Positions 22,801 to 64,000 of a stretch of 64,000 nt of DNA are shown here, piece after piece; position 1 is the stretch's first letter; the number at the start of each line of letters is the position of its first letter. Origin of the DNA: Botryllus schlosseri (taxonomy: Eukaryota); NCBI GenBank assembly GCA_051294905.1, contig CM119371.1:35094001-35158000 (forward strand). Direction: 5' to 3'. The notes below the pieces were generated by a model. That model had not been told where the DNA came from and ran no database searches. It worked only from the letters and a program-made list of their open reading frames with translations. The position numbers and the translations under genes are program-made.

Positions 22801-23130
22801 ATTGGCTAAAACTCGGTTCGATTATGCTTTTGGACAAGCCTCGACTCCTGCACGTGGTTAAAAGTGGAGCACTTGTCAATAATAGAAATATCGGCGTCTT
22901 TAATCCGAGAGCTATACGTGTAATTTTGCGAAAGACGTTGGCCAGGTGATGATACTCGCGCTATTTCTCTGAAAAGTAGAGATGAAATTCGACTCGAACT
23001 AGACTGAAGAATTGGCTAAAACTCGGTTCGATTATGCTTTGGGACAAATCTCGACTCCTGCACGTGGTTAAAAGTGGAGCACTTGTCAATAATAGAAATA
23101 TCGGCGTCTTTAATCCGAGAGCTATACGTG
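16881..23130. repeat. About 3 tandem copies of a 10-monomer (2100 bp) higher-order repeat
   Basis: Rare variants recur every 2100 bp: AAAGTGGAGG at 17401/19501/21601, AATAGAATTA at 18051/20151/22251, AGACGGAAAA at 18171/20271/22371. Boundaries are approximate. Confidence 0.9.
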
Positions 23131-35100: not shown

Positions 35101-37120
35101 TAATTTTGCGAAAGACGTTGGCCAGGTGATGATACTCGCGCTATTTCTCTGAAAAGTAGAGATGAAATTCGACTCGAACTAGACGGAAAAATTGGCTAAA
35201 ACTCGGTTCGATTATGCTTTGGGACAAATCTCGACTCCTGCACGTGGTTAAAAGTGGAGCACTTGTCAATAATAGAAATATCGGCGTCTTTAATCCGAGA
35301 GCTATACGTGTAATTTTGCGAAAGACGTTGGCCAGGTGATGATACTCGCGCTATTTCTCTGAAAAGTAGAGATGAAATTCGACTCGAACTAAACGGTAGA
35401 ATTGGCTAAAACTAGGTTCGATTATGCTTTGGGACAAGACTCGACTCCTGTACGTGGTTAAAAGTGGAGCACTTGTCTATAATAGAAATATCGGCGTCTT
35501 TAATCCGAGAGCTATACGTGTAATTTTGCGAAAGACGTTGGCCAGGTGATGATACTCGCGCTATTTCTCTGAAAAGTAGAGATGAAATTACACTCGAACT
35601 AGACGGTAGAATTGGCTAAAACTCGGTTCGATTATGCTTTTGGACAAGCCTCGACTCCTGCACGTGGTTAAAAGTGGAGCACTTGTCAATAATAGAAATA
35701 TCGGCGTCTTTAATCCGAGAGCTATACGTGTAATTTTGCGAAAGACGTTGGCCAGGTGATGATACTCGCGCTATTTCTCTGAAAAGTAGAGATGAAATTC
35801 GACTCGAACTAGACTGAAGAATTGGCTAAAACTCGGTTCGATTATGCTTTGGGACAAATCTCGACTCCTGCACGTGGTTAAAAGTGGAGCACTTGTCAAT
35901 AATAGAAATATCGGCGTCTTTAATCCGAGAGCTATACGTGTAATTTGGCGAAAGACGTTTGCCAGGTGATGATAATCGCGCAATTTCTCTGAAAAGTAGA
36001 GATGAAATTCGACTCGAACTAGACGGTAGAATTGGCTAAAACTCTGTTCGATTATGCTTTGGGACAAGCCTCGACTCCTGCACGTGGTTAAAAGTGGAGC
36101 ACTTGTCAATAATAGAAATATCGGCGTCTTTAATCCGAGAGCTATACGTGTAATTTTGCGAAAGACGTTGGCCAGGTGATGATACTCGCGCTATTTCTCT
36201 GAAAAGTAGAGATGAAATTCGACTCGAACTAAACGGTAGAATTGGCTAAAACTAGGTTCGATTATGCTTTGGGACAAGACTCGACTTCTGTACGTGGTTA
36301 AAAGTGGAGCACTTGTCTATAATAGAAATATCGGCGTCTTTAATCCGAGAGCTATACGTGTAATTTTGCGAAAGACGTTGGCCAGGTGATGATACTCGCG
36401 CTATTTCTCTGAAAAGTAGAGATGAAATTACACTCGAACTAGACGGTAGAATTGGCTAAAACTCGGTTCGATTATGCTTTTGAACAAGCCTCGACTCCTG
36501 CACGTGGTTAAAAGTGGAGCACTTGTCAATAATAGAAATATCGGCGTCTTTAATCCGAGAGCTATACGTGTAATTTTGCGAAAGACGTTGGCCAGGTGAT
36601 GATACTCGCGCTATTTCTCTGAAAAGTAGAGATGAAATTCGACTCGAACTAGACTGAAGAATTGGCTAAAACTCGGTTCGATTATGCTTTGGGACAAATC
36701 TCGACTCCTGCACGTGGTTAAAAGTGGAGCACTTGTCAATAATAGAAATATCGGCGTCTTTAATCCGAGAGCTATACGTGTAATTTTGCGAAAGACGTTG
36801 GCCAGGTGATGATACTCGCGCTATTTCTCTGAAAAGTAGAGATGAAATTCGACTCGAACTAGACGGTAGAATTGGCTAAAACTCGGTTCGATTATGCTTT
36901 GGGACAAGCCTCGACTCCTGTTCGTGGTTAAAAGTGGAGCACTTGACAATAATAGAAATATCGGCGTCTTTAATCCGAGAGCTATACGTGTAATTTGGCG
37001 AAAGACGTTGGCCAGGTGATGATACTCGCGCTATTTCTCTGAAAAGTAGAGATGAAATTCGACTCGAACTAGACGGTAGAATTGGCTAAAACTCGGTTCG
37101 ATTATGCTTTGGGACAAGCC

Positions 37121-43100: not shown

Positions 43101-44590
43101 GCCAGGTGATGATACTCGCGCAATTTCTCTGAAAAGTAGAGATGAAATTCGACTCGAACTAGACGGTAGAATTGGCTAAAACTAGGTTCGATTATGCTTT
43201 GGGACAAGACTCGACTCCTGTACGTGGTTAAAAGTGGAGGACTTGTCTATAATAGAAATATCGGCGTCTTTAATCCGAGAGCTATACGTGTAATTTTGCG
43301 AAAGACGTTGGTCAGGTGATGATACTCGCGCAATTTCTCTGAAAAGTAGAGATGAAATTCGACTCGAACTAGACGGTAGAATTGGCTAAAACTCGGTTCG
43401 ATTATGCTTTGGGACAAGCCTCGACTCCTGTACGTGGTTAAAAGTGGAGCACTTGTCTATGATGGAAATATCGGCGTCTTTAATCCGAGAGCTATACGTG
43501 TAACTTTGCGAAAGACGTTTGCCAGGTGATGATAATCGCGCAATTTCTCTGAAAAGTAGAGATGAAATTCGACTCGAACTAGACGGTAGAATTGGCTAAA
43601 ACTCGGTTCGATTATGCTTTGGGACAAGCCTCGACTCCTGAACATGGTTAAAAGTGGAGCACTTGTCTGTGATAGAAATATCGGCGTCTTTAATCCGAGA
43701 GCTATACGTGTAATTTTGCGAAAGACGTTGGCCAGGTGATGATACTCGCGCAATTTCTCTGAAAAGTAGAGATGAAATTCGACTCGAACTAGACGGTAGA
43801 ATTGGCTAAAACTAGGTTCGATTATGCTTTAGGACAAGACTCGACTCCTGTACGTGGTTAAAAGTGGAGCACTTGTCTATAATAGAAATATCGGCGTCTT
43901 TAATCCGAGAGCTATACGTGTAATTTTGCGAAAGACGTTGGCCAGGTGATGATACTCGCGCTATTTCTCTGAAAAGTAGAGATGAAATTCGACTCGAACT
44001 AGACGGAAGAATTGGCTAAAACTCGGTTCGATTATGCTTTGGGACAAATCTCGACTCCTGCACGTGGTTAAAAGTGGAGCACTTGTCAATAATAGAAATA
44101 TCGGCGTCTTTAATCCGAGAGCTATACGTGTAATTTTGCGAAAGACGTTGACCAGGTGATGATACTCGCGCAATTTCTCTGAAAAGTAGAGATGAAATTC
44201 GACTCGAACTAAACGGTAGAATTGGCTAAAACTAGGTTCGATTATGCTTTGGGACAAGACTCGACTCCTGTACGTGGTTAAAAGTGGAGCACTTGTCTAT
44301 AATAGAAATATCGGCGTCTTTAATCCGAGAGCTATACGTGTAATTTTGCGAAAGACGTTGGCCAGGTGATGATACTCGCGCTATTTCTCTGAAAAGTAGA
44401 GATGAAATTCGACTCGAACTAGACGGTAGAATTGGCTAAAACTCGGTTCGATTATGCTTTTGGACAAGCCTCGACTCCTGCACGTGGTTAAAAGTGGAGC
44501 ACTTGTCAATAATAGAAATATCGGCGTCTTTAATCCGAGAGCTATACGTGTAATTTTGCGAAAGACGTTGGCCAGGTGATGATACTCGCG
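37121..44590. repeat. Tandem duplication of an 18-monomer (3780 bp) block
   Basis: AACAGAAATA at 37371/41151, CAATCCGAGA at 38651/42431 and ACTTGTCTGT at 39881/43661 all show a 3780 offset. ORF pairs 38528/42308 and 39677/43457 agree. Confidence 0.9.
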
Positions 44591-47500
44591 CAATTTCTCT
44601 GAAAAGTAGAGGTGAAATTCGACTCGAACTAGACGTTAGAATTGGCTAAAACTCGGTTCGGTTATGCTTTGGGACAAGCCTCGACTCCTGAACGTGGTTA
44701 AAAGTGGAGCACTTGTATATGATAGAAATATCGGCGTCTTTAATCCGAGAGCTATACGTGTAACTTTGCGAAAGACGTTGGCCAGGTGATGATACTCGCG
44801 CAATTTCTCTGAAAAGTAGAGATGAAATTCGACTCGAACTAGATGGTAGAATTGGCTAAAACTAGGTTCGATTATGCTTTGGGACAAGACTCGACTCCTG
44901 TACGTGGTTAAAAGTGGAGCACTTGTCTTTAATAGAAATATCGGCGTCTTTAATCCGAGAGCTATACGTGTAATTTTGCGAAAGACGTTAACCAGGTGAT
45001 GATACTCGCGCAATTTCTCTGAAAAGTAGAGATGAAATTCGACTCGAACTAGACGGTAGAATTGGCTAAAACTCGGTTCGATTATGCTTTGGGACAAGCC
45101 TCGACCCCTGTTCGTGGTTAAAAGTGGAGCACTTGACTATAATAGAAATATCGGCGTCTTTAATCCGAGAGCTATACGTGTAATTTGGCGAAAGACGTTG
45201 GCCGGGTGATGATACTCGCGCTATTTCTCTGAAAAGTAGAGATGAAATTCGACTCGAACTAGACGGTAGAATTGGCTAAAACTCGGTTCGATTATGCTTT
45301 GGGACAAGCCTCGACTCCTGCACGTGGTTAAAAGTGGAGCACTTGTAAATAATAGAAATATCGGCGTCTTTAATCCGAGAGCTATACGTGTAATTTTGCG
45401 AAAGACGTTGGCCACGTGATGATACTCGCGCAATTTCTCTGAAAAGTAGAGGTGAAATTCGACTCGAACTAGACGTTAGAATTGGCTAAAACTCTGTTCG
45501 GTTATGCTTTGGGACAAGCCTCGACTCCTGAACGTGGTTAAAAGTGGAGCACTTGTATATGATAGAAATATCGGCGTCTTTAATCCGAGAGCTATACGTG
45601 TAACTTTGCGAAAGACGTTGGCCAGGTGATGATACTCGCGCAATTTCTCTGAAAAGTAGAGATGAAATTCGACTCGAACTAGATGGTAGAATTGGCTAAA
45701 ACTAGGTTCGATTATGCTTTGGGACAAGACTCGACTCCTGTACGTGGTTAAAAGTGGAGCACTTGTCTTTAATAGAAATATCGGCGTCTTTAATCCGAGA
45801 GCTATACGTGTAATTTTGCGAAAGACGTTAACCAGGTGATGATACTCGCGCAATTTCTCTGAAAAGTAGAGATGAGATTCGACTCGAACTAGACGGTAGA
45901 ATTGGCTAAAACTCGGTTCGATTATGCTTTGGGACAAGCCTCGACCCCTGTTCGTGGTTAAAAGTGGAGCACTTGACTATAATAGAAATATCGGCGTCTT
46001 TAATCCGAGAGCTATACGTGTAATTTGGCGAAAGACGTTGGCCGGGTGATGATACTCGCGCTATTTCTCTGAAAAGTAGAGATGAAATTCGACTCGAACT
46101 AGACAGTAGAATTGGCTAAAACTCGGTTCGATTATGCTTTGGGACAAGCCTCGACTCCTGCACGTGGTTAAAAGTGGAGCACTTGTAAATAATAGAAATA
46201 TCGGCGTCTTTAATCCGAGAGCTATACGTGTAATTTTGCGAAAGACGTTGGCCAGGTGATGATACTCGCGCAATTTCTCTGAAAAGTAGAGATGAAATTC
46301 GACTCGAACTAGACGGTAGAATTGGCTAAAACTAGGTTCGATTATGCTTTGGGACAAGACTCGACTCCTGTACGTGGTTAAAAGTGGAGGACTTGTCTAT
46401 AATAGAAATATCGGCGTCTTTAATCCGAGAGCTATACGTTTAATTTTGCGAAAGACGTTGGTCAGGTGATGATACTCGCGCAATTTCTCTGAAAAGTAGA
46501 GATGAAATTCGACTCGAACTAGACGGTAGAATTGGCTAAAACTCGGTTCGATTATGCTTTGGGACAAGCCTCGACTCCTGTACGTGGTTAAAAGTGGAGC
46601 ACTTGTCTATGATGGAAATATCGGCGTCTTTAATCCGAGAGCTATACGTGTAACTTTGCGAAAGACGTTTGCCAGGTGATGATAATCGCGCTATTTCTCT
46701 GAAAAGTAGAGATGAAATTCGACTCGAACTAGACGGTAGAATTGGCTAAAACTCGGTTCGATTATGCTTTGGGACAAGCCTCGACTCCTGAACATGGTTA
46801 AAAGTGGAGCACTTGTCTATGATAGAAATATCGGCGTCTTTAATCCGAAAGCTATACGTGTAATTTTGCGAAAGACGTTGGCCAGGTGATGATACTCGCG
46901 CAATTTCTCTGAAAAGTAGAGATGAAATTCGACTCGAACTAGACGGTAGAATTGGCTAAAACTAGGTTCGATTATGCTTTAGGACAAGACTCAACTCCTG
47001 TACGTGGTTAAAAGTGGAGCACTTGTCTATAATAGAAATATCGGCGTCTTTAATCCGAGAGCTATACGTGTAATTTTGCGAAAGACGTTGGCCAGGTGAT
47101 GATACTCGCGCTATTTCTCTGAAAAGTAGAGATGAAATTCGACTCGAACTAGACGGAAAAATTGGCTAAAACTCGGTTCGATTATGCTTTGGGACAAATC
47201 TCGACTCCTGCACGTGGTTAAAAGTGGAGCACTTGTCAATAATAGAAATATCGGCGTCTTTAATCCGAGAGCTATACGTGTAATTTTGCGAAAGACGTTG
47301 GCCAGGTGATGATACTCGCGCAATTTCTCTGAAAAGTAGAGATGAAATTCGACTCGAACTAAACGGTAGAATTGGCTAAAACTAGGTTCGATTATGCTTT
47401 GGGACAAGACTCGACTCCTGTACGTGGTTAAAAGTGGAGCACTTGTCTATAATAGAAATATCGGCGTCTTTAATCCGAGAGCTATACGTGTAATTTTGCG

Positions 47501-49338
47501 AAAGACGTTGGCCAGGTGATGATACTCGCGCTATTTCTCTGAAAAGTAGAGATGAAATTACACTCGAACTAGACGGTAGAATTGGCTAAAACTCGGTTCG
47601 ATTATGCTTTTGGACAAGCCTCGACTCCTGCACGTGGTTAAAAGTGGAGCACTTGTCAATAATAGAAATATCGGCGTCTTTAATCCGAGAGCTATACGTG
47701 TAATTTTGCGAAAGACGTTGGCCAGGTGATGATACTCGCGCAATTTCTCTGAAAAGTAGAGGTGAAATTCGACTCGAACTAGACGTTAGAATTGGCTAAA
47801 ACTCGGTTCGGTTATGCTTTGGGACAAGCCTCGACTCCTGAACGTGGTTAAAAGTGGAGCACTTGTATATGATAGAAATATCGTCGTCTTTAATCCGAGA
47901 GCTATACGTGTAACTTTGCGAAAGACGTTGGCCAGGTGATGATACTCGCGCAATTTCTCTGAAAAGTAGAGATGAAATTCGACTCGAACTAGATGGTAGA
48001 ATTGGCTAAAACTAGGTTCGATTATGCTTTGGGACAAGACTCGACTCCTGTACGTGGTTAAAAGTGGAGCACTTGCCTTTAATAGAAATATCGGCGTCTT
48101 TAATCCGAGAGCTATACGTGTAATTTTGCGAAAGACGTTAACCAGGTGATGATACTCGCGCAATTTCTCTGAAAAGTAGAGATGAAATTCGACTCGAACT
48201 AGACGGTAGAATTGGCTAAAACTCGGTTCGATTATGCTTTGGGACAAGCCTCGACTCCTGAACGTGGTTAAAAGTGGAGCACTTGTCTATGATAGAAATA
48301 TCGGCGTCTTTAATCCGAGAGCTATACGTGTAACTTTGCTAAAGACGTTGGCCAGGTGATGATACTCGCGCAATTTCTCTGAAAAGTAGAGATGAAATTC
48401 GACTCGAACTAGACGGTAGAATTGGCTAAAACTCGGTTCGATTATGCTTTGAGACAAGCCTCGACTCCTGAACGTGGTTAAAAGTGGAGCACTTGTCTAT
48501 GATAGAAATATCGGCGTCTTAAATCCGAGAGCTATACGTGTAATTTTGCGAAAGACGTTGGTCAGGTGATGATACTCGCGCAATTTCTCTGAAAAGTAGA
48601 GATGAAATTCGACTCGAACTAGACGGTAGAATTGGCTAAAACTAGGTTCGATTATGCTTTGGGACAAGACTCGACTCCTGTACGTGGTTAAAAGTGGAGC
48701 ACTTGTATATAATAGAAATATCGGCGTCTTTAATCCGAGAGCTATACGTGTAATTTTGCGAAAGACGTTGGCCAGGTGATGATACTCGCGCTATTTCTCT
48801 GAAAAGTAGAGATGAAATTCGACTCGAACTAGACGGTAGAATTGGCTAAAACTCGGTTCTATTATGCTTTGGGACAAGCCTCGACTCCTGTTTGTGGTTA
48901 AAAGTGGAGCACTTGTCTATAATAGAAATATCGGCGTCTTTAATCCAAGAGCTATACGTGTAATTTGGCGAAAGACGTTGGCCAGGTGATGATACTCGCG
49001 CTATTTCTCTGAAAAGTAGAGATGAAATTCGACTCGAACTAGACGGTAGAATTGGCTAAAACTCGGTTCGATTATGCTTTGGGACAAGCCTCGACTCCTG
49101 CACGTGGTTAAAAGTGGAGCACTTGTCAATAATAGAAATATCGGCGTCTTTAATCCGAGAGCTATACGTGTAATTTTGCGAAAGACGTTGGTCAGGTGAT
49201 GATACTCGCGCAATTTCTCTGAAAAGTAGAGATGAAATTCGACTCGAACTAGACGGTAGAATTGGCTAAAACTAGGTTCGATTATGCTTTGGGACAAGAC
49301 TCGACTCCTGTACGTGGTTAAAAGTGGAGCACTTGTAT

Positions 49339-49341
49339 TAT
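49339..49341. other. Out-of-register junction between the two satellite domains
   Basis: The sequence reads ...GGAGCACTTGTAT (monomer pos 198) + TAT + ATTGGCTAAAACTCGG (monomer pos 121). The next monomer starts at 49432, which is 291 bp after 49141 instead of 210. Confidence 0.93.
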
Positions 49342-50751
49342 ATTGGCTAAAACTCGGTTCGATTATGCTTTGGGACGAGACTCGACTCCTGTACGTGGTT
49401 AAGAGTGGAGCACTTGTCTATAATGGAAATATCGGCGTCTTTAATCCGAGAGCTATACGTGTAATTTTGCGAAAGACGTTGGCAAGGTGATGATACACGC
49501 GCAATTTCTCTGAAAAGTAGAGATGAAATTCGACTCGAACTAGACGGTAGAATTGGCTAAAACTAGGTTCGATTATGCTTTGGGACAAGACTCGACTCCT
49601 GTACGTGGTTAAAAGTGGAGCACTTGTATATAATAGAAATATCGGCGTCTTTAATCCGAGAGCTATGCGTGTAATTTTGCGAAAGACGTTGGCCAGGTGA
49701 TGATACTCGCGCTATTTCTCTGAAAAGTAGAGATGAAATTCGCTTCGAACTAGACGGCAGAATTGGCCAAAACTCGGTTCGATTATGCTTTGGGACAAGC
49801 CTCGACTCCTGTACGTGGTTAAAAGTGGAGCACTTGTCTATAATAGAAATATCGGCGTCTTTAATCCGAGAGCCATACGTGTAATTTTGCGAAAGACGTT
49901 GGCCAGGTGATGATACTCGCGCAATTTCTCTGAAAAGTAGAGATGAAATTCGACTCGAACTAGACGGTAGAATTGGCTAAAACTAGGTTCGATTATGCTT
50001 TGGGACAAGACTCGACTCCTGTACGTGGTTAAAAGTGGAGCACTTGTATATAATAGAAATATCGGCGTCTTTAATCCGAGAGCTATACGTGTAATTTTGC
50101 GAAAGACGTTGGCCAGGTGATGATACTCGCGCTATTTCTCTGAAAAGTAGAGATGAAATTCGACTCGAACTAGACGTTAGAATTGGCTAAAACTCGGTTC
50201 GATTATGCTTTGGGACAAGCCTCGACTCCTGTACGTGGTTAAAAGTGGAGCACTTGTCTATAATAGAAATATTGGCGTCTTTAATACGAGAGCTATACGT
50301 GTAATTTTGCGAAAGACATTGGCCAGGTGATGATACTCGCGCTATTTCTCTGAAAAGTAGAGATCAAATTCGACTCAAACTAGACGGTAGAATTGGCTAA
50401 AACTCGGTTCGATTATGCTTTGGGACAAGCCTCGACTCCTGCACGTGGTTAAAAGTGGAGCACTTGTCTATAATAGAAATATCGACGTCTTTAATCCGAG
50501 AGCTATACGTGTAATTTTGCGAAAGACGTTGGCCAGGTGATGATACTCGCGCAATTTCTCTGAAAAGTAGAGATGAAATTCGACTCGAACTAGACGGTAG
50601 AATTGGCTAAAACTAGGTTCGATTATGCTTTGAGACAAGACTCGACTCCTGTACGTGGGTAAAAGTGGAGCACTTGTCTATAATAGAAATATCGGCGTCT
50701 TTAATCCGAGAGCTATACGTGTAATTTTGCGAAAGACGTTGGCCAGGTGAT

Positions 50752-50956
50752 AATCGCACGGATTCTTTTGAAACTACACTCTAATTTCAACCGGAACAAG
50801 ACGGTAGAATTCGATGAAACTTAGTTCGAACTTGATTCAGGACAAGCTTCGACTCGTGTACGTGTCTTCGTTTTGATGCCGTATCGATAATTTAAATTGT
50901 GACATCTTAAATCAGATGTCCATGTGCTAATTTTCGACAAACATTGGCGGAGTGAT
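50752..50956. repeat. Type-B divergent monomer, copy 1 (205 bp)
   Basis: AATCGCACGGATTCTTTTGAAACTAC...CAAACATTGGCGGAGTGAT replaces one A unit. It is collinear with A and shares AGACGGTAGAATT, GGACAAGC, TCGACTC and TGTACGTG. Confidence 0.93.
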
Positions 50957-51586
50957 GATACTCGCGCAATTTCTCTGAAGAGTAGAGATGAAATTCGACT
51001 CGAACTAGACCGTAGAATTGGCTAAAACTCGGTTCGATTATGCTTTGGGACAAGACTCGACTTCTGTACGTGGTTAAAAGTGGAGCACTTGTCTATAATA
51101 GAAATATCGGCGTCTTTAATCCGAGAGCTATACGTGTAATTTTGCGAAAGACATTGGCCAGGTGATGATACTCGCGCTATTTCTCTGAAAAGTAGAGATG
51201 AAATTCGACTCGAACTAGACGGTAGAATTGGCTAAAACTCGTTTCGATTATGCTTTGGGACAAGCTTCGACTCCTGCACGTGGTTAAAAGTGGAGCACTG
51301 GTCTATAATAGAAATATCGTCGTCTTTAATCCGAGAGCTATACGTGTAATTTTGCGAAAGACGTTGGCCAGGTGATGATACTCGCGCAATTTCTCTGAAA
51401 AGTAGAGATGAAATTCGACTCGAAATAGACGGTAGAATTGGCTAAAACTAGGTTCGATTATGCTTTGGGACAAGACTCGACTCCTGTACGTGGTTAAAAG
51501 TGGAGCACTTGTATAGAATAGAAATATCGGCGTCTTTAATCCGAGAGCTATACGTGTAATTTTGCGAAAGACGTTGGCCAGGTGAT

Positions 51587-51791
51587 AATCGCACGGATTC
51601 TTTTGAAACTACACTCTAATTTCAACCGGAACAAGACGGTAGAATTCGATGAAACTTAGTTCGAACATGATTCAGGACAAGCTTCGACTCGTGTACGTGT
51701 CTTCGTTTTGATGCCGTATCGATAATTTAAATTGTGACATCTTAAATCAGATGGCCATGTGCTAATTTTCGACAAACATTGGCGGAGTGAT
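51587..51791. repeat. Type-B monomer, copy 2
   Basis: Same 205 bp unit and boundaries; lies 3 A units after copy 1. Confidence 0.93.
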
Positions 51792-52211
51792 GATACTCGC
51801 GCAATTTCTCTGAAGAGTAGAGATGAAATTCGACTCGAACTAGACGGTAGAATTGGCTAAAACTCGGTTTGATTATGCTTTGGGACAAGCCTCGACTCCT
51901 GTACGTGGTTAAAAGTGGAGCACTTGTCTATAATAGAAATATCGGCGTCTTTAATCCGAGAGCTATACGTGTAATTTTGCGAAAGACGTTGGCCAGGTGA
52001 TGATACTCGCGCAATTTCTCTGAAAAGTAGAGATGAAATTCGACTCGAACTAGACGGTAGAATTGGCTAAAACTAGGTTCGATTATGCTTTGGGACAAGA
52101 CTCGACTCCTGTACGTGGTTAAAAGTGGAGCATTTGTCTATAATAGAAATATCGGCGTCTTTAATCCGAGAGCTATACGTGTAATTTTGCGAAAGACGTT
52201 GGCCAGGTGAT

Positions 52212-52416
52212 AATCGCACGGAATCTTTTGAAACTACACTCTAATTTCAACCGGAACAAGACGGTAGAATTCGATGAAACTTAGTTCGAACATGATTCAG
52301 GACAAGCTTCGACTCGTGTACGTGTCTACGTTTTGATGCCGTATCGATAATTTAAATGGTGACATCTTAAATCAGACGGCCATGTGCTAATTTTCGACAA
52401 ACATTGGCGGAGTGAT
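52212..52416. repeat. Type-B monomer, copy 3
   Basis: Same unit with variants GGAATCTT, GTCTACG, AAATGGTG; lies 2 A units after copy 2. Confidence 0.93.
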
Positions 52417-53675
52417 GATACTCGCGCAATTTCTCTGAAAAGTAGAGATGAAATTCGACTCGAACTAGACGGTAGAATTGGATAAAACTAGGTTCGATTA
52501 TGCTTTGGGACAAGACTCGACTCCTGTACGTGGTTAAAAGTGGAGCACTTGTCTATAATAGAAATATCGGCGTCTTTAATCCGAGAGCTATACGTGTAAT
52601 TTTGCGAAAGACGTTGGCCAGGTGATGATACACGCGCAATTTCTCTGAAAAGTAGAGATGAAATTCGACTCGAACTAGACGGTAGAATTGGCTAAAACTA
52701 GGTTCGATTATGCTTTGGGACAAGACTCGACTCCTGTACGTGGTTAAAAGTGGAGCACTTGTATATAATAGAAATATCGGCGTCTTTAATCCGAGAGCTA
52801 TACGTGTAATTTTGCGGAAGACGTTGGCCAGGTGATGATACTCGCGCTATTTCTCTGAAAAGTAGAGATGAAATTCGCTTCGCACTAGACGGCAGAATTG
52901 GCCAAAACTCGGTTCGATTATGCTTTGGGACAAGCCTCGACTCCTGTACGTGGTTAAAAGTGGAGCACTTGTCTATAATAGAAATATCGGCGTCTTTAAT
53001 CCGAGAGCTATACGTGTAATTTTGCGAAAGACGTTGGCCAGGTGATGATACTCGCGCAATTTCTCTGAAAAGTAGAGATGAAATTCGACTCGAACTAGAC
53101 GGTAGAATTGGCTAAAACTAGGTTCGAATATGCTTTGGGACAAGACTCGACTCCTGTACGTGGTTAAAAGTGGAGTACTTGTATATAATAGAAATATCGG
53201 CGTCTTTAATCCGAGAGCTATACGTGTAATTTTGCGAAAGACGTTGGCCAGGTGATGATACTCGCGCTATTTCTCTGAAAAGTAGAGATGAAATTCGACT
53301 CGAACTAGACGGTAGAATTGGCTAAAACTCGGTTCGATTATGCTTTGGGACAAGCCTCGACTCCTGTACGTGGTTAAAAGTGGAGCACTTGTCTATAATA
53401 GAAATATCGGCGTCTTTAATCCGAGAGCTATACGTGTAATTTTGCGAAAGACATTGGCCAGGTGATGATACTCGCGCTATTTCTCTGAAAAGTAGAGATG
53501 AAATTCGACTCGAACTAGACGGTAGAATTGTCTAAAACTAGGTTCGATTATGCTTTGGGACAAGACTCGACTCCTGTACGTGTTAAAAGTGGAGCACTTG
53601 TCTATAATAGAAATATCGGCGTCTTTAATCCGAGAGCTATACGTGTAATTTTGCGAAAGACGTTGGCCAGGTGAT

Positions 53676-53880
53676 AATCGCACGGATTCTTTTGAAACTA
53701 CACTCTAATTTCAACCGGAACAAGACGATAGAATTCGATGAAACTTAGTTCGAACATGATTCAGGACAAGCTTCGACTCGTGTACGTGTCTTCGTTTTGA
53801 TGCCGTATCGATAATTTATATGATGACATCTTAAATCAGATGGCCATGTGCTAATTTTCGACAAACATTGGCGGAGTGAT
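53676..53880. repeat. Type-B monomer, copy 4
   Basis: Same unit with variants GACGATAG, TTTATATGATG; lies 6 A units (one with a 1 bp deletion) after copy 3. Confidence 0.93.
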
Positions 53881-55980
53881 GATACTCGCGCAATTTCTCT
53901 GAAAAGTAGAGATGAAATTCGACTCGAACTAGACGGTAGAATTGGCTAAAACTCGGTTCGATTATGCTTTGGGACAAGACTCGACTCCTGTACGTGGTTA
54001 AAAGTGGAGCACTTGTCTATAATAGAAATATCGGCGTCTTTAATCCGAGAGCTATACGTGTAATTTTGCGAAAGACGTTGGCCAGGTGATGATACTCGCG
54101 CAATTTCTCTGAAAAGTAGAGATGAAATTCGACTCGAACTAGACGGTAGAATTGGCTAAAACTAGGTTCGATTATGCTTTGGGACAAGACTCGACTCCTG
54201 TACGTGGTTAAAAGTGGAGCACTTGTATAGAATAGAAATATCGGCGTCTTTAATCCGAGAGCCATACGTGTAATTTTGCGAAAGACGTTGGCCAGGTGAT
54301 GATACTCGCGCATTTTCTCTGAAAAGTAGAGATGAAATTCGACTCGAACTAGACGGTAGAATTGGCTAAAACTCGGTTCGATTATGCTTTGGGACAAGCC
54401 TCGACTCCTGTACGTGGTTAAAAGTGGAGTACTTGTATAGAATAGAAATATCGGCGTCTTTAATCCGAGAGCTATACGTGTAATTTTGCGAAAGACGTTG
54501 GCCAGGTGATGATACTCGCGCAATTTCTCTGAAAAGTAGAGATGAAATTCGACTCGAACTAGACGGTAGAATTGGCTAAAACTCGGTTCGATTATGCTTT
54601 GGGACAAACCTCGACTCCTGTACGTGGTTAAAAGTGGAGTATTTGTCTATAATAGAAATATCGGCGTCTTTAATCCGAGAGCTATACGTGTAATTTTGCG
54701 AAAGACGTTGGCCAGGTGATGATACTCGCGCAATTTCTCTGAAAAGTAGAGATGAAATTCGACTCGAACTAGACGGTAGAATTGGCTAAAACTAGGTTCG
54801 ATTATGCTTTGGGACAAGACTCGACTCCTGTACGTGGTTAAAAGTGGAGCACTTGTATAGAATAGAAATATCGGCGTCTTTAATCCGAGAGCTATACGTG
54901 TAATTTTGCGAAAGACGTTGGCCAGGTGATGATACTCGCGCAATTTCTCTCAAAAGTAGAGATGAAATTCGACTCGAACTAGACGGTAGAATTGGCTAAA
55001 ACTCGGTTCGATTATGCTTTGGGACAAGACTCGACTCCTGTACGTGGTTAAAAGTGGAGTACTTGTCTATAATAGAAATATCGGCGTCTTTAATCCGAGA
55101 GCTATACGTGTAATTTTGCGGAAGACGTTGGCCAGGTGATGATACTCGCGCTATTTCTCTGAAAAGTAGAGATGAAATTCGCTTCGCACTAGACGGCAGA
55201 ATTGGCCAAAACTCGGTTCGATTATGCTTTGGGACAAGCCTCGACTCCTGTACGTGGTTAAAAGTGGAGCACTTGTCTATAATAGAAATATCGGCGTCTT
55301 TAATCCGAGAGCTATACGTGTAATTTTGCGAAAGACGTTGGCCAGGTGATGATACTCGCGCAATTTCTCTGAAAAGTAGAGATGAAATTCGACTCGAACT
55401 AGACGGTAGAATTGGCTAAAACTAGGTTCGATTATGCTTTGGGACAAGACTCGACTCCTGTACGTGGTTAAAAGTGGAGTACTTGTATATAATAGAAATA
55501 TCGGCGTCTTTAATCCGAGAGCTATACGTGTAATTTTGCGAAAGACGTTGGCCAGGTGATGATACTCGCGCTATTTCTCTGAAAAGTAGAGATGAAATTC
55601 GACTCGAACTAGACGGTAGAATTGGCTAAAACTCGGTTCGATTATGCTTTGGGACAAGCCTCGACTCCTGTACGTGGTTAAAAGTGGAGCACTTGTCTAT
55701 AATAGAAATATCGGCGTCTTTAATCCGAGAGCTATACGTGTAATTTTGCGAAAGACATTGGCCAGGTGATGATACTCGCGCTATTTCTCTGAAAAGTAGA
55801 GATGAAATTCGACTCGAACTAGACGGTAGAATTGTCTAAAACTAGGTTCGATTATGCTTTGGGACAAGACTCGACTCCTGTACGTGGTTAAAAGTGGAGC
55901 ACTTGTCTATAATAGAAATATCGGCGTCTTTAATCCGAGAGCTATACGTGTAATTTTGCGAAAGACGTTGGCCAGGTGAT

Positions 55981-56185
55981 AATCGCACGGATTCTTTTGA
56001 AACTACACTCTAATTTCAACCGGAACAAGACGGTAGAATTCGATGAAACTTAGTTCGAACATGATTCAGGACAAGCTTCGACTCGTGTTTGTGTCTACGT
56101 TTTGATGCCGTATCGATAATTTAAATGGTGACATCTTAAATCAGACGGCCATGTGCTAATTTTCGACAAACATTGGCGGAGTGAT
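55981..56185. repeat. Type-B monomer, copy 5
   Basis: Same unit with variant GTGTTTGTGTCTACG; lies 10 A units after copy 4. Confidence 0.93.
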
Positions 56186-56605
56186 GATACTCGCGCAATT
56201 TCTCTGAAAAGTAGAGATGAAATTCGACTCGAACTAGACGGTAGAATTGGCTAAAACTCGGTTCGATTATGCTTTGGGACGAGACTCGACTCCTGTACGT
56301 GGTTAAAAGTGGAGCACTTGTCTATAATGGAAATATCGGCGTCTTTAATCCGAGAGCTATACGTGTAATTTTGCGAAAGACGTTGGCAAGGTGATGATAC
56401 ACGCGCAATTTCTCTGAAAAGTAGAGATGAAATTCGACTCGAACTAGACGGTAGAATTGGCTAAAACTAGGTTCGATTATGCTTTGGGACAAGACTCGAC
56501 TCCTGTACGTGGTTAAAAGTGGAGCACTTGTATATAATAGAAATATCGGCGTCTTTAATCCGAGAGCTATACGTGTAATTTTGCGAAAGACGTTGGCCAG
56601 GTGAT

Positions 56606-56810
56606 AATCGCACGGATTCTTTTGAAACTACACTCTAATTTCAACCGGAACAAGACGGTAGAATTCGATGAAACTTAGTTCGAACATGATTCAGGACAAG
56701 CTTCGACTCGTGTACGTGTCTTCGTTTTGATGCCGTATCGATAATTTATATGATGACATCTTAAATCAGATGGCCATGTGCTAATTTTCGACAAACATTG
56801 GCGGAGTGAT
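56606..56810. repeat. Type-B monomer, copy 6
   Basis: Same unit, TTTATATGATG subtype; lies 2 A units after copy 5. Confidence 0.93.
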
Positions 56811-57020
56811 GATACTCGCGCAATTTCTCTGAAAAGTAGAGATGAAATTCGACTCGAACTAGACGGTAGAATTGGCTAAAACTAGGTTCGATTATGCTTT
56901 GGGACAAGACTCGACTCCTGTACGTGGTTAAAAGTGGAGCACTTGTATATAATAGAAATATCGGCGTCTTTAATCCGAGAGCTATACGTGTAATTTTGCG
57001 AAAGACGTTGGCCAGGTGAT

Positions 57021-57225
57021 AATCGCACGGATTCTTTTGAAACTACACTCTAATTTCAACCGGAACAAGACGGTAGAATTCGATGAAACTTAGTTCGAAC
57101 ATGATTCAGGACAAGCTTCGACTCGTGTACGTGTCTTCGTTTTGATGCCGTATCGATAATTTATATGATGACATCTTAAATCAGATGGCCATGTGCTAAT
57201 TTTCGACAAACATTGGCGGAGTGAT
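57021..57225. repeat. Type-B monomer, copy 7
   Basis: Same subtype as copy 6; lies 1 A unit after it. Confidence 0.93.
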
Positions 57226-58065
57226 GATACTCGCGCAATTTCTCTGAAAAGTAGAGATGAAATTCGACTCGAACTAGACGGTAGAATGGGCTAAAACTCG
57301 GTTCGATTATGCTTTGGGACAAGACTCGACTCCTGTACGTGGTTAAAAGTGGAGCACTTGTCTATAATAGAAATATCGGCGTCTTTAATCCGAGAGCTAT
57401 ACGTGTAATTTTGCGAAAGACGTTGGCCAGGTGATGATACTCGCGCAATTTCTCTGAAAAGTAGAGATGAAATTCGACTCGAACTAGACGGTAGAATTGG
57501 CTAAAACTAGGTTCGATTATGCTTTGGGACAAGACTCGACTCCTGTGCGTGGTTAAAAGTGGAGCACTTGTATAGAATAGAAATATCGGCGTCTTTAATC
57601 CGAGAGCCATACGTGTAATTTTGCGAAAGACGTTGGCCAGGTGATGATACTCGCGCATTTTCTCTGAAGAGTAGAGATGAAATTCGACTCGAACTAGACG
57701 GTAGAATTGGCTAAAACTCGGTTTGATTATGCTTTGGGACAAGCCTCGACTCCTGTACGTGGTTAAAAGTGGAGCACTTGTCTATAATAGAAATATCGGC
57801 GTCTTTAATCCGAGAGCTATACGTGTAATTTTGCGAAAGACGTTGGCCAGGTGATGATACTCGCGCAATTTCTCTGAAAAGTAGAGATGAAATTCGACTC
57901 GAACTAGACGGTAGAATTGGCTAAAACTAGGTTCGATTATGCTTTGGGACAAGACTCGACTCCTGTACGTGGTTAAAAGTGGAGCATTTGTCTATAATAG
58001 AAATATCGGCGTCTTTAATCCGAGAGCTATACGTGTAATTTTGCGAAAGACGTTGGCCAGGTGAT

Positions 58066-58270
58066 AATCGCACGGAATCTTTTGAAACTACACTCTAATT
58101 TCAACCGGAACAAGACGGTAGAATTCGATGAAACTTAGTTCGAACATGATTCAGGACAAGCTTCGACTCGTGTACGTGTCTACGTTTTGATGCCGTATCG
58201 ATAATTTAAATGGTGACATCTTAAATCAGACGGCCATGTGCTAATTTTCGACAAACATTGGCGGAGTGAT
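58066..58270. repeat. Type-B monomer, copy 8
   Basis: Same variants as copy 3 (offset 5854); lies 4 A units after copy 7. Confidence 0.93.
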
Positions 58271-59529
58271 GATACTCGCGCAATTTCTCTGAAAAGTAGA
58301 GATGAAATTCGACTCGAACTAGACGGTAGAATTGGATAAAACTAGGTTCGATTATGCTTTGGGACAAGACTCGACTCCTGTACGTGGTTAAAAGTGGAGC
58401 ACTTGTCTATAATAGAAATATCGGCGTCTTTAATCCGAGAGCTATACGTGTAATTTTGCGAAAGACGTTGGCCAGGTGATGATACACGCGCAATTTCTCT
58501 GAAAAGTAGAGATGAAATTCGACTCGAACTAGACGGTAGAATTGGCTAAAACTAGGTTCGATTATGCTTTGGGACAAGACTCGACTCCTGTACGTGGTTA
58601 AAAGTGGAGCACTTGTATATAATAGAAATATCGGCGTCTTTAATCCGAGAGCTATACGTGTAATTTTGCGGAAGACGTTGGCCAGGTGATGATACTCGCG
58701 CTATTTCTCTGAAAAGTAGAGATGAAATTCGCTTCGCACTAGACGGCAGAATTGGCCAAAACTCGGTTCGATTATGCTTTGGGACAAGCCTCGACTCCTG
58801 TACGTGGTTAAAAGTGGAGCACTTGTCTATAATAGAAATATCGGCGTCTTTAATCCGAGAGCTATACGTGTAATTTTGCGAAAGACGTTGGCCAGGTGAT
58901 GATACTCGCGCAATTTCTCTGAAAAGTAGAGATGAAATTCGACTCGAACTAGACGGTAGAATTGGCTAAAACTAGGTTCGATTATGCTTTGGGACAAGAC
59001 TCGACTCCTGTACGTGGTTAAAAGTGGAGTACTTGTATATAATAGAAATATTGGCGTCTTTAATCCGAGAGCTATACGTGTAATTTTGCGAAAGACGTTG
59101 GCCAGGTGATGATACTCGCGCTATTTCTCTGAAAAGTAGAGATGAAATTCGACTCGAACTAGACGGTAGAATTGGCTAAAACTCGGTTCGATTATGCTTT
59201 GGGACAAGCCTCGACTCCTGTACGTGGTTAAAAGTGGAGCACTTGTCTATAATAGAAATATCGGCGTCTTTAATCCGAGAGCTATACGTGTAATTTTGCG
59301 AAAGACATTGGCCAGGTGATGATACTCGCGCTATTTCTCTGAAAAGTAGAGATGAAATTCGACTCGAACTAGACGGTAGAATTGTCTAAAACTAGGTTCG
59401 ATTATGCTTTGGGACAAGACTCGACTCCTGTACGTGTTAAAAGTGGAGCACTTGTCTATAATAGAAATATCGGCGTCTTTAATCCGAGAGCTATACGTGT
59501 AATTTTGCGAAAGACGTTGGCCAGGTGAT

Positions 59530-59734
59530 AATCGCACGGATTCTTTTGAAACTACACTCTAATTTCAACCGGAACAAGACGATAGATTTCGATGAAACTT
59601 AGTTCGAACATGATTCAGGACAAGCTTCGACTCGTGTACGTGTCTTCGTTTTGATGCCGTATCGATAATTTATATGATGACATCTTAAATCAGATGGCCA
59701 TGTGCTAATTTTCGACAAACATTGGCGGAGTGAT
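59530..59734. repeat. Type-B monomer, copy 9
   Basis: Shares the GACGATAG variant and the upstream 1 bp deletion with copy 4 (offset 5854). Confidence 0.93.
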
Positions 59735-61834
59735 GATACTCGCGCAATTTCTCTGAAAAGTAGAGATGAAATTCGACTCGAACTAGACGGTAGAATTGGC
59801 TAAAACTCGGTTCGATTATGCTTTGGGACAAGACTCGACTCCTGTACGTGGTTAAAAGTGGAGCACTTGTCTATAATAGAAATATCGGCGTCTTTAATCC
59901 GAGAGCTATACGTGTAATTTTGCGAAAGACGTTGGCCAGGTGATGATACTCGCGCAATTTCTCTGAAAAGTAGAGATGAAATTCGACTCGAACTAGACGG
60001 TAGAATTGGCTAAAACTAGGTTCGATTATGCTTTGGGACAAGACTCGACTCCTGTACGTGGTTAAAAGTGGAGCACTTGTATAGAATAGAAATATCGGCG
60101 TCTTTAATCCGAGAGCCATACGTGTAATTTTGCGAAAGACGTTGGCCAGGTGATGATACTCGCGCATTTTCTCTGAAAAGTAGAGATGAAATTCGACTCG
60201 AACTAGACGGTAGAATTGGCTAAAACTCGGTTCGATTATGCTTTGGGACAAGCCTCGACTCCTGTACGTGGTTAAAAGTGGAGTACTTGTATAGAATAGA
60301 AATATCGGCGTCTTTAATCCGAGAGCTATACGTGTAATTTTGCGAAAGACGTTGGCCAGGTGATGATACTCGCGCAATTTCTCTGAAAAGTAGAGATGAA
60401 ATTCGACTCGAACTAGACGGTAGAATTGGCTAAAACTCGGTTCGATTATGCTTTGGGACAAACCTCGACTCCTGTACGTGGTTAAAAGTGGAGTATTTGT
60501 CTATAATAGAAATATCGGCGTCTTTAATCCGAGAGCTATACGTGTAATTTTGCGAAAGACGTTGGCCAGGTGATGATACTCGCGCAATTTCTCTGAAAAG
60601 TAGAGATGAAATTCGACTCGAACTAGACGGTAGAATTGGCTAAAACTAGGTTCGATTATGCTTTGGGACAAGACTCGACTCCTGTACGTGGTTAAAAGTG
60701 GAGCACTTGTATAGAATAGAAATATCGGCGTCTTTAATCCGAGAGCTATACGTGTAATTTTGCGAAAGACGTTGGCCAGGTGATGATACTCGCGCAATTT
60801 CTCTCAAAAGTAGAGATGAAATTCGACTCGAACTAGACGGTAGAATTGGCTAAAACTCGGTTCGATTATGCTTTGGGACAAGACTCGACTCCTGTACGTG
60901 GTTAAAAGTGGAGTACTTGTCTATAATAGAAATATCGGCGTCTTTAATCCGAGAGCTATACGTGTAATTTTGCGGAAGACGTTGGCCAGGTGATGATACT
61001 CGCGCTATTTCTCTGAAAAGTAGAGATGAAATTCGCTTCGCACTAGACGGCAGAATTGGCCAAAACTCGGTTCGATTATGCTTTGGGACAAGCCTCGACT
61101 CCTGTACGTGGTTAAAAGTGGAGCACTTGTCTATAATAGAAATATCGGCGTCTTTAATCCGAGAGCTATACGTGTAATTTTGCGAAAGACGTTGGCCAGG
61201 TGATGATACTCGCGCAATTTCTCTGAAAAGTAGAGATGAAATTCGACTCGAACTAGACGGTAGAATTGGCTAAAACTAGGTTCGATTATGCTTTGGGACA
61301 AGACTCGACTCCTGTACGTGGTTAAAAGTGGAGTACTTGTATATAATAGAAATATCGGCGTCTTTAATCCGAGAGCTATACGTGTAATTTTGCGAAAGAC
61401 GTTGGCCAGGTGATGATACTCGCGCTATTTCTCTGAAAAGTAGAGATGAAATTCGACTCGAACTAGACGGTAGAATTGGCTAAAACTCGGTTCGATTATG
61501 CTTTGGGACAAGCCTCGACTCCTGTACGTGGTTAAAAGTGGAGCACTTGTCTATAATAGAAATATCGGCGTCTTTAATCCGAGAGCTATACGTGTAATTT
61601 TGCGAAAGACATTGGCCAGGTGATGATACTCGCGCTATTTCTCTGAAAAGTAGAGATGAAATTCGACTCGAACTAGACGGTAGAATTGTCTAAAACTAGG
61701 TTCGATTATGCTTTGGGACAAGACTCGACTCCTGTACGTGGTTAAAAGTGGAGCACTTGTCTATAATAGAAATATCGGCGTCTTTAATCCGAGAGCTATA
61801 CGTGTAATTTTGCGAAAGACGTTGGCCAGGTGAT

Positions 61835-62039
61835 AATCGCACGGATTCTTTTGAAACTACACTCTAATTTCAACCGGAACAAGACGGTAGAATTCGATGA
61901 AACTTAGTTCGAACATGATTCAGGACAAGCTTCGACTCGTGTTTGTGTCTACGTTTTGATGCCGTATCGATAATTTAAATGGTGACATCTTAAATCAGAC
62001 GGCCATGTGCTAATTTTCGACAAACATTGGCGGAGTGAT
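61835..62039. repeat. Type-B monomer, copy 10
   Basis: Same GTGTTTGTG variant as copy 5 (offset 5854). Confidence 0.93.
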
Positions 62040-63509
62040 GATACTCGCGCAATTTCTCTGAAAAGTAGAGATGAAATTCGACTCGAACTAGACGGTAGAA
62101 TTGGCTAAAACTCGGTTCGATTATGCTTTGGGACGAGACTCGACTCCTGTACGTGGTTAAAAGTGGAGCACTTGTCTATAATGGAAATATCGGCGTCTTT
62201 AATCCGAGAGCTATACGTGTAATTTTGCGAAAGACGTTGGCAAGGTGATGATACACGCGCAATTTCTCTGAAAAGTAGAGATGAAATTCGACTCGAACTA
62301 GACGGTAGAATTGGCTAAAACTAGGTTCGATTATGCTTTGGGACAAGACTCGACTCCTGTGCGTGGTTAAAAGTGGAGCACTTGTATAGAATAGAAATAT
62401 CGGCGTCTTTAATCCGAGAGCCATACGTGTAATTTTGCGAAAGACGTTGGCCAGGTGATGATACTCGCGCATTTTCTCTGAAAAGTAGAGATGAAATTCG
62501 ACTCGAACTAGACGGTAGAATTGGCTAAAACTCGGTTCGATTATGCTTTGGGACAAGCCTCGACTCCTGTACGTGGTTAAAAGTGGAGTACTTGTATAGA
62601 ATAGAAATATCGGCGTCTTTAATCCGAGAGCTATACGTGTAATTTTGCGAAAGACGTTGGCCAGGTGATGATACTCGCGCATTTTCTCTGAAAAGTAGAG
62701 ATGAAATTCGACTCGAACTAGACGGTAGAATTGGCTAAAACTCGGTTCGATTATGCTTTGGGACAAGCCTCGACTCCTGTACGTGGTTAAAAGTGGAGTA
62801 TTTGTCTATAATAGAAATATCGGCGTCTTTAATCCGAGAGCTATACGTGTAATTTTGCGAAAGACGTTGGCCAGGTGATGATACTCGCGCAATTTCTCTG
62901 AAAAGTAGAGATGAAATTCGACTCGAACTAGACGGTAGAATTGGCTAAAACTAGGTTCGATTATGCTTTGGGACAAGACTCGACTCCTGTACGTGGTTAA
63001 AAGTGGAGCACTTGTATAGAATAGAAATATCGGCGTCTTTAATCCGAGAGCTATACGTGTAATTTTGCGAAAGACGTTGGCCAGGTGATGATACTCGCGC
63101 AATTTCTCTCAAAAGTAGAGATGAAATTCGACTCGAACTAGACGGTAGAATTGGCTAAAACTCGGTTCGATTATGCTTTGGGACAAGCCTCGACTCCTGC
63201 ACGTGGTTAAAAGTGGAGCACTTGTCTATAATAGAAATATCGACGTCTTTAATCCGAGAGCTATACGTGTAATTTTGCGAAAGACGTTGGCCAGGTGATG
63301 ATACTCGCGCAATTTCTCTGAAAAGTAGAGATGAAATTCGACTCGAACTAGACGGTAGAATTGGCTAAAACTAGGTTCGATTATGCTTTGGGACAAGACT
63401 CGACTCCTGTACGTGGGTAAAAGTGGAGCACTTGTCTATAATAGAAATATCGGCGTCTTTAATCCGAGAGCTATACGTGTAATTTTGCGAAAGACGTTGG
63501 CCAGGTGAT

Positions 63510-63714
63510 AATCGCACGGATTCTTTTGAAACTACACTCTAATTTCAACCGGAACAAGACGGTAGAATTCGATGAAACTTAGTTCGAACATGATTCAGGA
63601 CAAGCTTCGACTCGTGTACGTGTCTTCGTTTTGATGCCGTATCGATAATTTATATGATGACATCTTAAATCAGATGGCCATGTGCTAATTTTCGACAAAC
63701 ATTGGCGGAGTGAT
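63510..63714. repeat. Type-B monomer, copy 11
   Basis: Same unit, TTTATATGATG subtype; lies 7 A units after copy 10. Confidence 0.93.
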
Positions 63715-64000
63715 GATACTCGCGCAATTTCTCTGAAAAGTAGAGATGAAATTCGACTCGAACTAGACGGTAGAATTGGCTAAAACTCGGTTCGATTATG
63801 CTTTGGGACAAGACTCGACTCCCGTACGTGGTTAAAAGTGGAGCACTTGTCTATAATAGAAATATCGGCGTCTTTAATCCGAGAGCTATACGTGTAATTT
63901 TGCGAAAGACGTTGGCCAGGTGATGATACTCGCGCATTTTCTCTGAAAAGTAGAGATGAAATTCGACTCGAACTAGACGGTAGAATTGGCTAAAACTAGG

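What the first reader, a model, noticed from the sequence alone, without database searches (positions are those of the whole stretch)
50752..63714. A second, anciently diverged 205 bp monomer family is interspersed as singletons within the 210 bp satellite
Seen: 11 near-identical B units, each collinear with A but only about 67% identical (about 141 matches in my manual alignment), whereas A-A and B-B copies differ by a few bases. B is never adjacent to another B and is separated by 3, 2, 6, 10, 2, 1, 4, 6, 10 and 7 A units. Inference: B is an old paralog of the same ancestral satellite (satellite library model) that now spreads only as a passenger in A-B-A blocks. It could be a relic of an older array, or a monomer captured from another locus. 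No intermediate-divergence monomers are visible.
Basis: partly seen in the sequence, partly recalled or inferred. Interest (0 to 1): 0.7.

Follow-up and report, generated by a model that had tools for sequence, protein, structure and literature searches.

The report
Old passenger monomer in satellite array
A distantly related 205-base repeat unit sits as single copies inside a 210-base satellite DNA array and is copied along with its neighbours, a real but already described way in which satellite arrays carry old relatives.

Summary
Confirmed. Of 304 monomers, 11 are 205-bp B units, spaced 3,2,6,10,2,1,4,6,10,7 as stated; A and B share 138 of 210 columns (z 17 against shuffles) and the window holds no intermediates. 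The 11 copies are not independent: all have identical junctions in one shared 5-bp word, share flanking A haplotypes, lie in a distinct array layer starting near 49.2 kb, and three come from one 4.7-kb, 99.9% duplication. 'Never adjacent' is unremarkable by chance (p 0.12) and follows automatically if crossovers need like-with-like pairing. Read contigs show B elsewhere in the genome in other subtypes, crossing into A wherever a listed piece crosses its end; no B-B joint was listed (power limited); older diverged relatives exist at low depth. Best reading: one old A-B-A junction, B trapped at one copy and amplified by block duplication. Origin (dimer remnant or captured monomer) is open. The same organisation is described in rice centromeres and Drosophila.

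The parts
56..49195 (+). A-only layer: 234 monomers of 210 bp with irregular local higher-order duplications
   Evidence: 24 common alleles private to this layer, carried by 231 of 234 units; commonest offset between identical monomers 10 units
49196..63919 (+). B-bearing layer: 59 A and 11 B monomers with their own A allele pool; runs off the window's right end
   Evidence: 16 private alleles carried by 45 of 59 A units; the cut at monomer 234 minimises shared alleles (10 of 66, against 40-50 for sampled cuts at monomers 25-200)
49261..49417 (+). 81-bp internal duplication that makes one 291-bp A unit, at the layer boundary
   Evidence: TRF period 81, 1.9 copies; unit 49196-49486
50747..50951 (+). 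B unit 1 (205 bp), lineage 152T
51582..51786 (+). B unit 2, lineage 152T
52207..52411 (+). B unit 3, lineage 122A+171C (closest to the genome-wide major alleles at these sites)
53671..53875 (+). B unit 4, lineage 149T+153A
55976..56180 (+). B unit 5, lineage 122A+171C
56601..56805 (+). B unit 6, lineage 149T+153A; reference for the read lay
57016..57220 (+). B unit 7, identical to unit 6; second copy of a 415-bp A-B dimer duplication
58061..58265 (+). B unit 8, duplicate of unit 3
59525..59729 (+). B unit 9, duplicate of unit 4 (one change)
61830..62034 (+). B unit 10, duplicate of unit 5
63505..63709 (+). B unit 11, lineage 149T+153A
51787..56506 (+). first copy of a 4720-bp block (3 B units) repeated 5854 bp downstream
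   Evidence: 4 mismatches in 4720 bp at offset 5854
57641..62360 (+). second copy of the 4720-bp block

Best explanation
B is an old paralog of the 210-bp satellite that is joined to A by one ancient pair of junctions, both inside the same 5-bp word (GTGAT), so that each B is exactly one unit in register. At 66% identity (longest exact shared run 13 bp) B is too far from A to pair with it for unequal exchange or conversion, so it is neither homogenised nor cut into hybrids. Exchanges happen only A with A or B with B; these change the number of A units between two B and copy whole A-B-A blocks, but can never bring two B together. B is therefore locked at one copy per site and multiplies as a neutral passenger of block duplications. 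In this window one layer of the array (from about 49.2 kb) expanded from a B-bearing haplotype next to a B-free layer. Shown: sequence, junction identity, shared flanks, duplications, layer boundary, other B subtypes in read contigs. Inferred: the recombination rule, neutrality, a single origin of the junction. Origin of the junction: I put about 45% on a remnant of an ancient A-B dimer from which A escaped as a monomer by a crossover in that word and then expanded, 35% on capture of one unit from a B array, 20% on other routes.
For: Junction flanks identical in 11 of 11 B (15 bases on each side of both ends). After dropping the second copy of the 4.7-kb block (22 monomers), 8 of 8 A units before B carry 79A+104A (12 of 32 others), 8 of 8 have no variant in positions 146-210 (16 of 32 others), and 8 of 8 A units after B have none in 1-28 (13 of 32 others); Fisher p 0.003, 0.013, 0.004, though the copies remain related. 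Three B were made by a 4720-bp duplication with 4 mismatches and one by a 415-bp A-B duplication. B-B divergence (2.1% per base) is like that of A in the same layer (2.8%). No partial B and no conversion tract. In run X1 about 75% of B depth carries alleles seen in 0 of 11 window copies (positions 61, 89, 113), so B has other subtypes elsewhere; B depth does not fall at the B start (53,556 and 52,780 against 42,770-48,749 in the next four bins) while A depth falls 5- to 8-fold at the cut ends of the reference, so B is mostly preceded by A. All 9 listed low-divergence pieces that cross a B end continue in A-type sequence; no B-to-B joint among the 15 joints shown, and none listed for X13 (26 records laid) or X14 (7 laid). 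Same pattern described in rice (one monomer fixed at one copy, partner 1-115 copies; 10.1101/2024.07.28.605524, passages).
Against: No whole genome was available, so pure B or long (AB)n arrays elsewhere are not excluded: 43 of 58 joints and 83 of 93 loose ends were hidden, only 24 pieces of about 13,600 were shown, only 1 of the 9 crossing pieces meets the tool's 31-letter rule on both sides, and even the A-A joint has little support in such contigs. X1 depth at the B end is somewhat lower (17,179 against 19,999-30,804 in the five bins from 56706 to 56775), and the left half of B is about twice as deep as the right, unexplained. A 67-column core is more conserved than the rest (54 of 67; p 0.038 for a window size chosen after looking, not significant at 20, 30 or 40), which could mean constraint or old conversion. 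Neutrality is untested.
Confidence: 0.75

Rival explanations
1. Recurrent capture: a pure B array exists elsewhere and single B units (for example as monomer circles) insert again and again into A arrays at the shared 5-bp word.
For: Both ends in one 5-bp word are what integration of a one-unit circle would leave; microhomology-aided insertion of one satellite into another is proposed for Drosophila Rsp-like/1.688 (PMC7403614, passages); several B subtypes exist in run X1.
Against: All window copies share flanking haplotypes and lack the genome-wide major alleles at positions 61, 89, 113 and 118 (0 of 11), so they descend from one local copy; no B-B joint listed in three DNA runs (limited power).
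Confidence: 0.1
2. Eroded relic: B is what is left of an older array after A spread through it by conversion, found only at array edges.
For: B occurs only in the right-hand layer; diverged relatives exist at low depth (X1 record 1, X13 record 9, 16 differences in 112); layered arrays with sharp transitions are known from alpha satellite (PMC9859433, passages).
Against: Erosion should leave B pieces of varied length; 11 of 11 are one full unit with identical ends and no B fragment lies outside them (five overlapping 12-mers from one point variant). The B-bearing layer is as homogeneous as the A-only layer (2.8% against 3.8%), so it is a recent expansion and not decayed edge.
Confidence: 0.07
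3. Functional punctuation: B is kept because it changes chromatin phasing or protein binding. A is 20 helical turns with a 10.5-bp A/T dinucleotide rhythm; B is 5 bp shorter, lacks the rhythm and shifts everything downstream by half a turn.
For: A has WW power 8.8 at 10.6 bp, reached by 43 of 3000 shuffles within the 10-11 bp band; B has 3.2, reached by 1260 of 3000. Conserved core 54 of 67. B has persisted long enough to form subtypes. In one RNA run the few reads cover B at least as deeply as A.
Against: The periodicity is not significant over the whole spectrum (74 of 500 shuffles); 49 kb of the array has no B; spacing is irregular (1-10) and explained by duplications; 209- and 291-bp units also break phase; the RNA signal is 16 reads, 12 only partly on the reference.
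Confidence: 0.06
4. Assembly or sequencing artefact.
For: Satellite arrays are hard to assemble; the 4.7-kb block copies are 99.9% alike.
Against: B and A-B junctions appear in contigs of three DNA runs and B in raw reads of a fourth; the block copies differ at 4 sites; variants are shared in nested patterns.
Confidence: 0.02

Closest known systems
Rice CEN155 dimers with biased copy number (XYm / XmY) and non-canonical 'sati' intervals (bioRxiv 10.1101/2024.07.28.605524; passages read; supplements not seen)
   Same: One monomer family stays at one copy while its related partner varies (1-8 or 1-115 copies); short derived units lie dispersed between canonical monomers; the spacing pattern is repeated by local duplication.
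   Different: Here the singleton is 34% diverged from the host monomer over its full length; I did not see the divergence values between rice superfamilies, and rice sati units are mostly of other lengths. The sequences are from another lineage; centromere function is shown for rice, not here.
Drosophila Rsp-like inserted in 1.688 clusters (PMC7403614; passages read)
   Same: A rare satellite joined to a common one at 4-7 bp of microhomology; the same junction recurs; spread by hitchhiking with flanking repeats of the common satellite.
   Different: Rsp-like and 1.688 are unrelated in sequence, junction monomers are truncated, the second junction varies, and Rsp-like forms its own clusters; here the two units are homologous, in register, with both junctions fixed and no B cluster seen.
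Tribolium madens TmSat1/TmSat2 intermingled arrays (PMC13081366; passages read)
   Same: Major and minor satellites from one ancestral unit, long major arrays interrupted by the minor one, conserved transition zones.
   Different: The minor satellite forms short arrays with 704-bp complex units and macro-dyad inversions; here B is a single collinear unit and the window has no inversion.
Primate alpha satellite dimers and layered arrays (PMC9859433 and PMC5109768; passages read)
   Same: Diverged monomer families found associated as dimers; layers with sharp transitions.
   Different: There the dimer is the repeating unit; here A also repeats alone and outnumbers B. No binding box was tested here.

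Membership tests
Satellite DNA (complex tandem repeat) | Long head-to-tail array of a homogeneous monomer | tested here: met
   TRF period 210, 304.6 copies over the whole window; no inversion
Satellite DNA (complex tandem repeat) | Not a known structured RNA gene array | tested here: met
   No Rfam match up to E 1 in 56181-57430; tRNA scan and ORF scan were not run
Satellite superfamily / paralogous subfamilies | Full-length homology with a clear gap between families | tested here: met
   138 of 210, z 17; stem 0.47 against 0.025; no intermediates in the window
Satellite library model | Related species share the families at different abundance | tested here: inconclusive
   A and B occur in runs labelled organism B and organism C, with different B alleles and apparent ratios in X13, but depths are low and mixed samples or contamination cannot be excluded
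XYm-type biased dimer (rice) | One family fixed at one copy, the partner variable | tested here: met
   11 of 11 B single; A runs 1-10
XYm-type biased dimer (rice) | Spacing pattern repeated by local duplication | tested here: met
   6,10 spacing repeated by the 4720-bp block
Regular higher-order repeat | Fixed multimer repeated many times in tandem | tested here: not met
   Spacing irregular; the largest block occurs twice, with 1134 bp between the copies
Captured satellite (Rsp-like type) | Donor arrays of the captured unit exist | tested here: inconclusive
   No B-B joint listed in three DNA runs, but most X1 rows were hidden; no genome held
Centromeric satellite | CENP-A/CENH3 occupancy or position at the primary constriction | not testable with these tools
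   No chromatin data; an unchecked scan note names another very abundant 177-base satellite in this genome

The most novel reading that the evidence does not exclude
B is a conserved punctuation unit: a 34%-diverged partner kept genome-wide, perhaps across related species, always as a single copy between A units because it resets rotational phase by half a turn or carries a different protein-binding face, and so marks a chromatin domain distinct from B-free layers.
Probability: 0.06. Interest if true: 0.6.

Novelty: new member of a known kind. Interest (0 to 1): 0.27.

Why it matters
It is a clean natural marker for how satellite arrays turn over. Because B cannot be homogenised by A, it records block duplications and shows a sharp boundary between two expansion layers. 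A complete assembly could use it to test whether homogenisation fails beyond a divergence threshold and whether a monomeric satellite arose from a dimer. These points refine known models; they do not add a new kind of element. I found no description of this satellite family in the searches made, which cover only the open library.

Tried and rejected
Whole genome: none held. Exact-pattern scans found nothing: a B motif and an A motif in JGI metagenome contigs, an A motif in prokaryote genomes, a B motif in viral contigs; these collections are ill suited, so this is no evidence. Rfam: no match. Paper search with short motifs gave 3 unrelated chance hits; searches for a described 210-bp satellite in marine, cnidarian or tunicate contexts gave nothing relevant in the listings (listings only). 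Run search: no RNA holder listed on record. 'Never adjacent' as evidence of avoidance: rejected, p 0.12 for 11 in 62 and 0.23 for 7 in 35. My simulation of like-with-like exchange gave no B-B in the 6 of 400 runs that kept 5 or more B, but it forbids B-B by construction and produced shorter gaps than seen, so it is an illustration and no test. A-to-B conversion: 19 of 45 A variant alleles at divergent sites match B (a third expected without transition bias), as scattered single sites; A polymorphism is not enriched at divergent sites (p 0.56, 0.87). Internal subrepeats: none (autocorrelation at most 0.33). CpG decay: C-to-T alleles 15 at 30 CpG positions against 23 at 60 others, p 0.37, no methylation signature. 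Copy-number ratio from contig depth (B 13-54 thousand against A 0.5-1.2 million in X1; higher in X13 and X14): not taken as a measurement, because branching inflates summed depth unevenly. Transcription of B: 16 reads from about 6% of one run, 75% running on into unlike sequence; too few to claim.
Full report
Observation. The whole 64-kb window is one tandem array of period 210. Splitting it gave 304 complete monomers: 290 of 210 bp, 2 of 209, 1 of 291 and 11 of 205. The consensus units align end to end at 138 of 210 columns with two gaps (3 and 2 bases); base shuffles reach at most 52.9% and dinucleotide shuffles a score of at most 73 against 196 observed. The corrected distance is 0.43. There is no continuum in the window: 292 A units match the A consensus at 201-209 positions and B at 131-139, the 11 B match B at 201-204, and in a tree of 134 distinct monomers the B stem is 0.47 long while no other branch exceeds 0.025.

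The copies are one family of descent. Fifteen bases on each side of both junctions are identical in 11 of 11 copies, and both the entry into B and the return to A fall in the same five shared bases, GTGAT, so each B is exactly one unit in register. The A unit before B carries 79A+104A in 11 of 11 cases (18 of 48 other A units in the layer) and has no variant in its last 65 bases (23 of 48 others have one); the A unit after B has none in its first 28 bases (29 of 48 others have one). After dropping the 22 monomers of the second copy of the large duplication the contrasts remain (8 of 8 against 12, 16 and 13 of 32), though relatedness inflates such tests. A 4720-bp block with three B is repeated 5854 bp downstream with 4 mismatches, which is why the spacing 6, 10 occurs twice, and a 415-bp A-B pair is duplicated at 56391-57220. 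The 11 B are 7 distinct sequences in three lineages, 2.1% apart on average, against 2.8% for A in the same layer.

The A units change their variant pool abruptly at about 49196, seven units before the first B and at an 81-bp internal duplication. Twenty-four common alleles are private to the left part and 16 to the right; a cut at monomer 234 leaves 10 of 66 common alleles shared, against 40-50 for sampled cuts between monomers 25 and 200. The window thus spans the border of two separately expanded layers, one descended from a B-bearing haplotype. Sharp layer transitions are described for human alpha satellite (PMC9859433, passages).

Why singletons. Random placement already gives no B-B pair with probability 0.12. 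More to the point, if exchange needs like-with-like pairing, a B flanked by A stays flanked by A: a crossover between two A units changes only the number of A units, and one between two B units joins an A-B left side to a B-A right side. This is inference. It fits the absence of hybrids: the longest exact A/B run is 13 bases, no A unit has more than 2 B alleles at 67 diagnostic sites, and no B fragment occurs outside the 11 units apart from one point variant. My simulation only restates this rule and is not evidence.

Beyond the window. No genome was held, so I laid four coded runs on a non-repetitive half-A, B, half-A reference, 56496-56910. In X1 (organism A, possibly the source sample) summed contig depth over B is 13-54 thousand against 0.5-1.2 million over inner A bins; this is no copy number, but B is not a local rarity. 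About three quarters of the B depth has alleles at positions 61, 89 and 113 that 0 of 11 window copies carry, and at 122, 149 and 171 the reference allele is almost absent genome-wide: the window's B is a minor, locally derived subtype. Nine listed pieces with low divergence cross a B end and all continue in A-type sequence (only one has 31 letters on both sides). Depth does not drop at the B start, whereas it drops 5- to 8-fold at the cut ends of A; at the B end the drop is under twofold. No B-to-B joint is among the 15 of 58 joints shown, and none is listed for X13 or X14, where few records were laid and almost all fit whole. This argues against large pure B arrays without excluding small ones. 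A and B are also present in runs labelled organism B and C, X13 with a different B allele profile; whether these are true relatives or mixed samples I cannot tell. Two low-depth contigs (X1 record 1, X13 record 9) cross the A-to-B junction with 16 differences in 112 bases; by my hand comparison the X13 loose end continues B-like (21 of 25 to B, 16 of 25 to A), its upstream end is ambiguous (23 against 21 of 29), and another loose end is about equally far from both (20 and 22 of 30). So an old, diverged A-to-B junction and further diverged relatives exist outside the window. The RNA run gave 16 reads, mostly on B and mostly running on into unlike sequence; too few for a claim.

How it most likely works. 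One old A-B-A configuration; B escapes homogenisation because it is too diverged, and is carried along whenever a block that contains it is duplicated. Two origins give the same exact one-unit structure: an ancient A-B dimer from which A was released as a monomer by a crossover in the shared five bases and then expanded, or integration of a one-unit B circle at that word. The old diverged A-to-B junction and the lack of listed B-B joints tip me slightly to the dimer (about 45% against 35%). Erosion of an older array is disfavoured, since it would leave ragged ends. A functional role is possible but weakly supported: A shows a 10.5-bp A/T dinucleotide rhythm (43 of 3000 shuffles within the 10-11 bp band; not significant over the whole spectrum, 74 of 500) that B lacks, and a 67-column core is 81% identical (p 0.038, window chosen after looking).

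Comparison with what is known. Rice centromeres show the same organisation: dimers in which one family stays at one copy while the partner ranges from 1 to 115, with the bias repeated by local duplication, and derived 'sati' units dispersed among canonical monomers (10.1101/2024.07.28.605524, passages; its supplements, which hold the divergence values, were not seen). Hitchhiking of a rare satellite joined to a common one at a short microhomology is proposed in Drosophila (PMC7403614, passages). Related major and minor satellites intermingle with conserved transition zones in Tribolium madens (PMC13081366, passages). What is somewhat unusual here is the combination of deep divergence, full collinearity and two fixed junctions. 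I found no description of this satellite in the searches made and no look-alike in the scan's notes. Unchecked notes on the same genome call it a sea squirt and mention a different, very abundant 177-base satellite, so centromeric status of this array should not be assumed.

Verdict. Real, correctly described, and explained by ordinary satellite dynamics: a new member of a known kind. Interest 0.27.

Noticed in passing
window 49196 (monomer 234): Sharp boundary between two array layers with almost disjoint A variant pools, coinciding with an 81-bp internal duplication.
   Followed up: yes
window 56-49195: The A-only layer has irregular nested higher-order duplications; identical monomers recur most often at offsets of 10, 18, 26, 35 and 38 units.
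   Followed up: partly
window 56516-56627 (reference): Low-depth contigs in X1 and X13 carry a diverged A-to-B junction (16 differences in 112 bases) with B-like continuation; possibly a third, older monomer type.
   Followed up: partly
window 56601-56805 (reference): In X1 the left half of B has about twice the summed depth of the right half; unexplained, perhaps a mapping effect of subtype differences or half-B hybrids elsewhere.
   Followed up: no
window 56601-56805 (reference): The 16 RNA reads of X23 fall mostly on B, share alleles with the X13 B type, and 75% run on into unlike sequence.
   Followed up: no
A consensus, whole window: CpG-rich monomer (15 CpG per 210 bp at 43% GC) with no excess of C-to-T changes at CpG, which suggests little germ-line methylation.
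   Followed up: partly
A consensus, whole window: A/T dinucleotide periodicity near 10.5 bp (20 cycles per monomer), nominally significant in band only; absent from B.
   Followed up: partly
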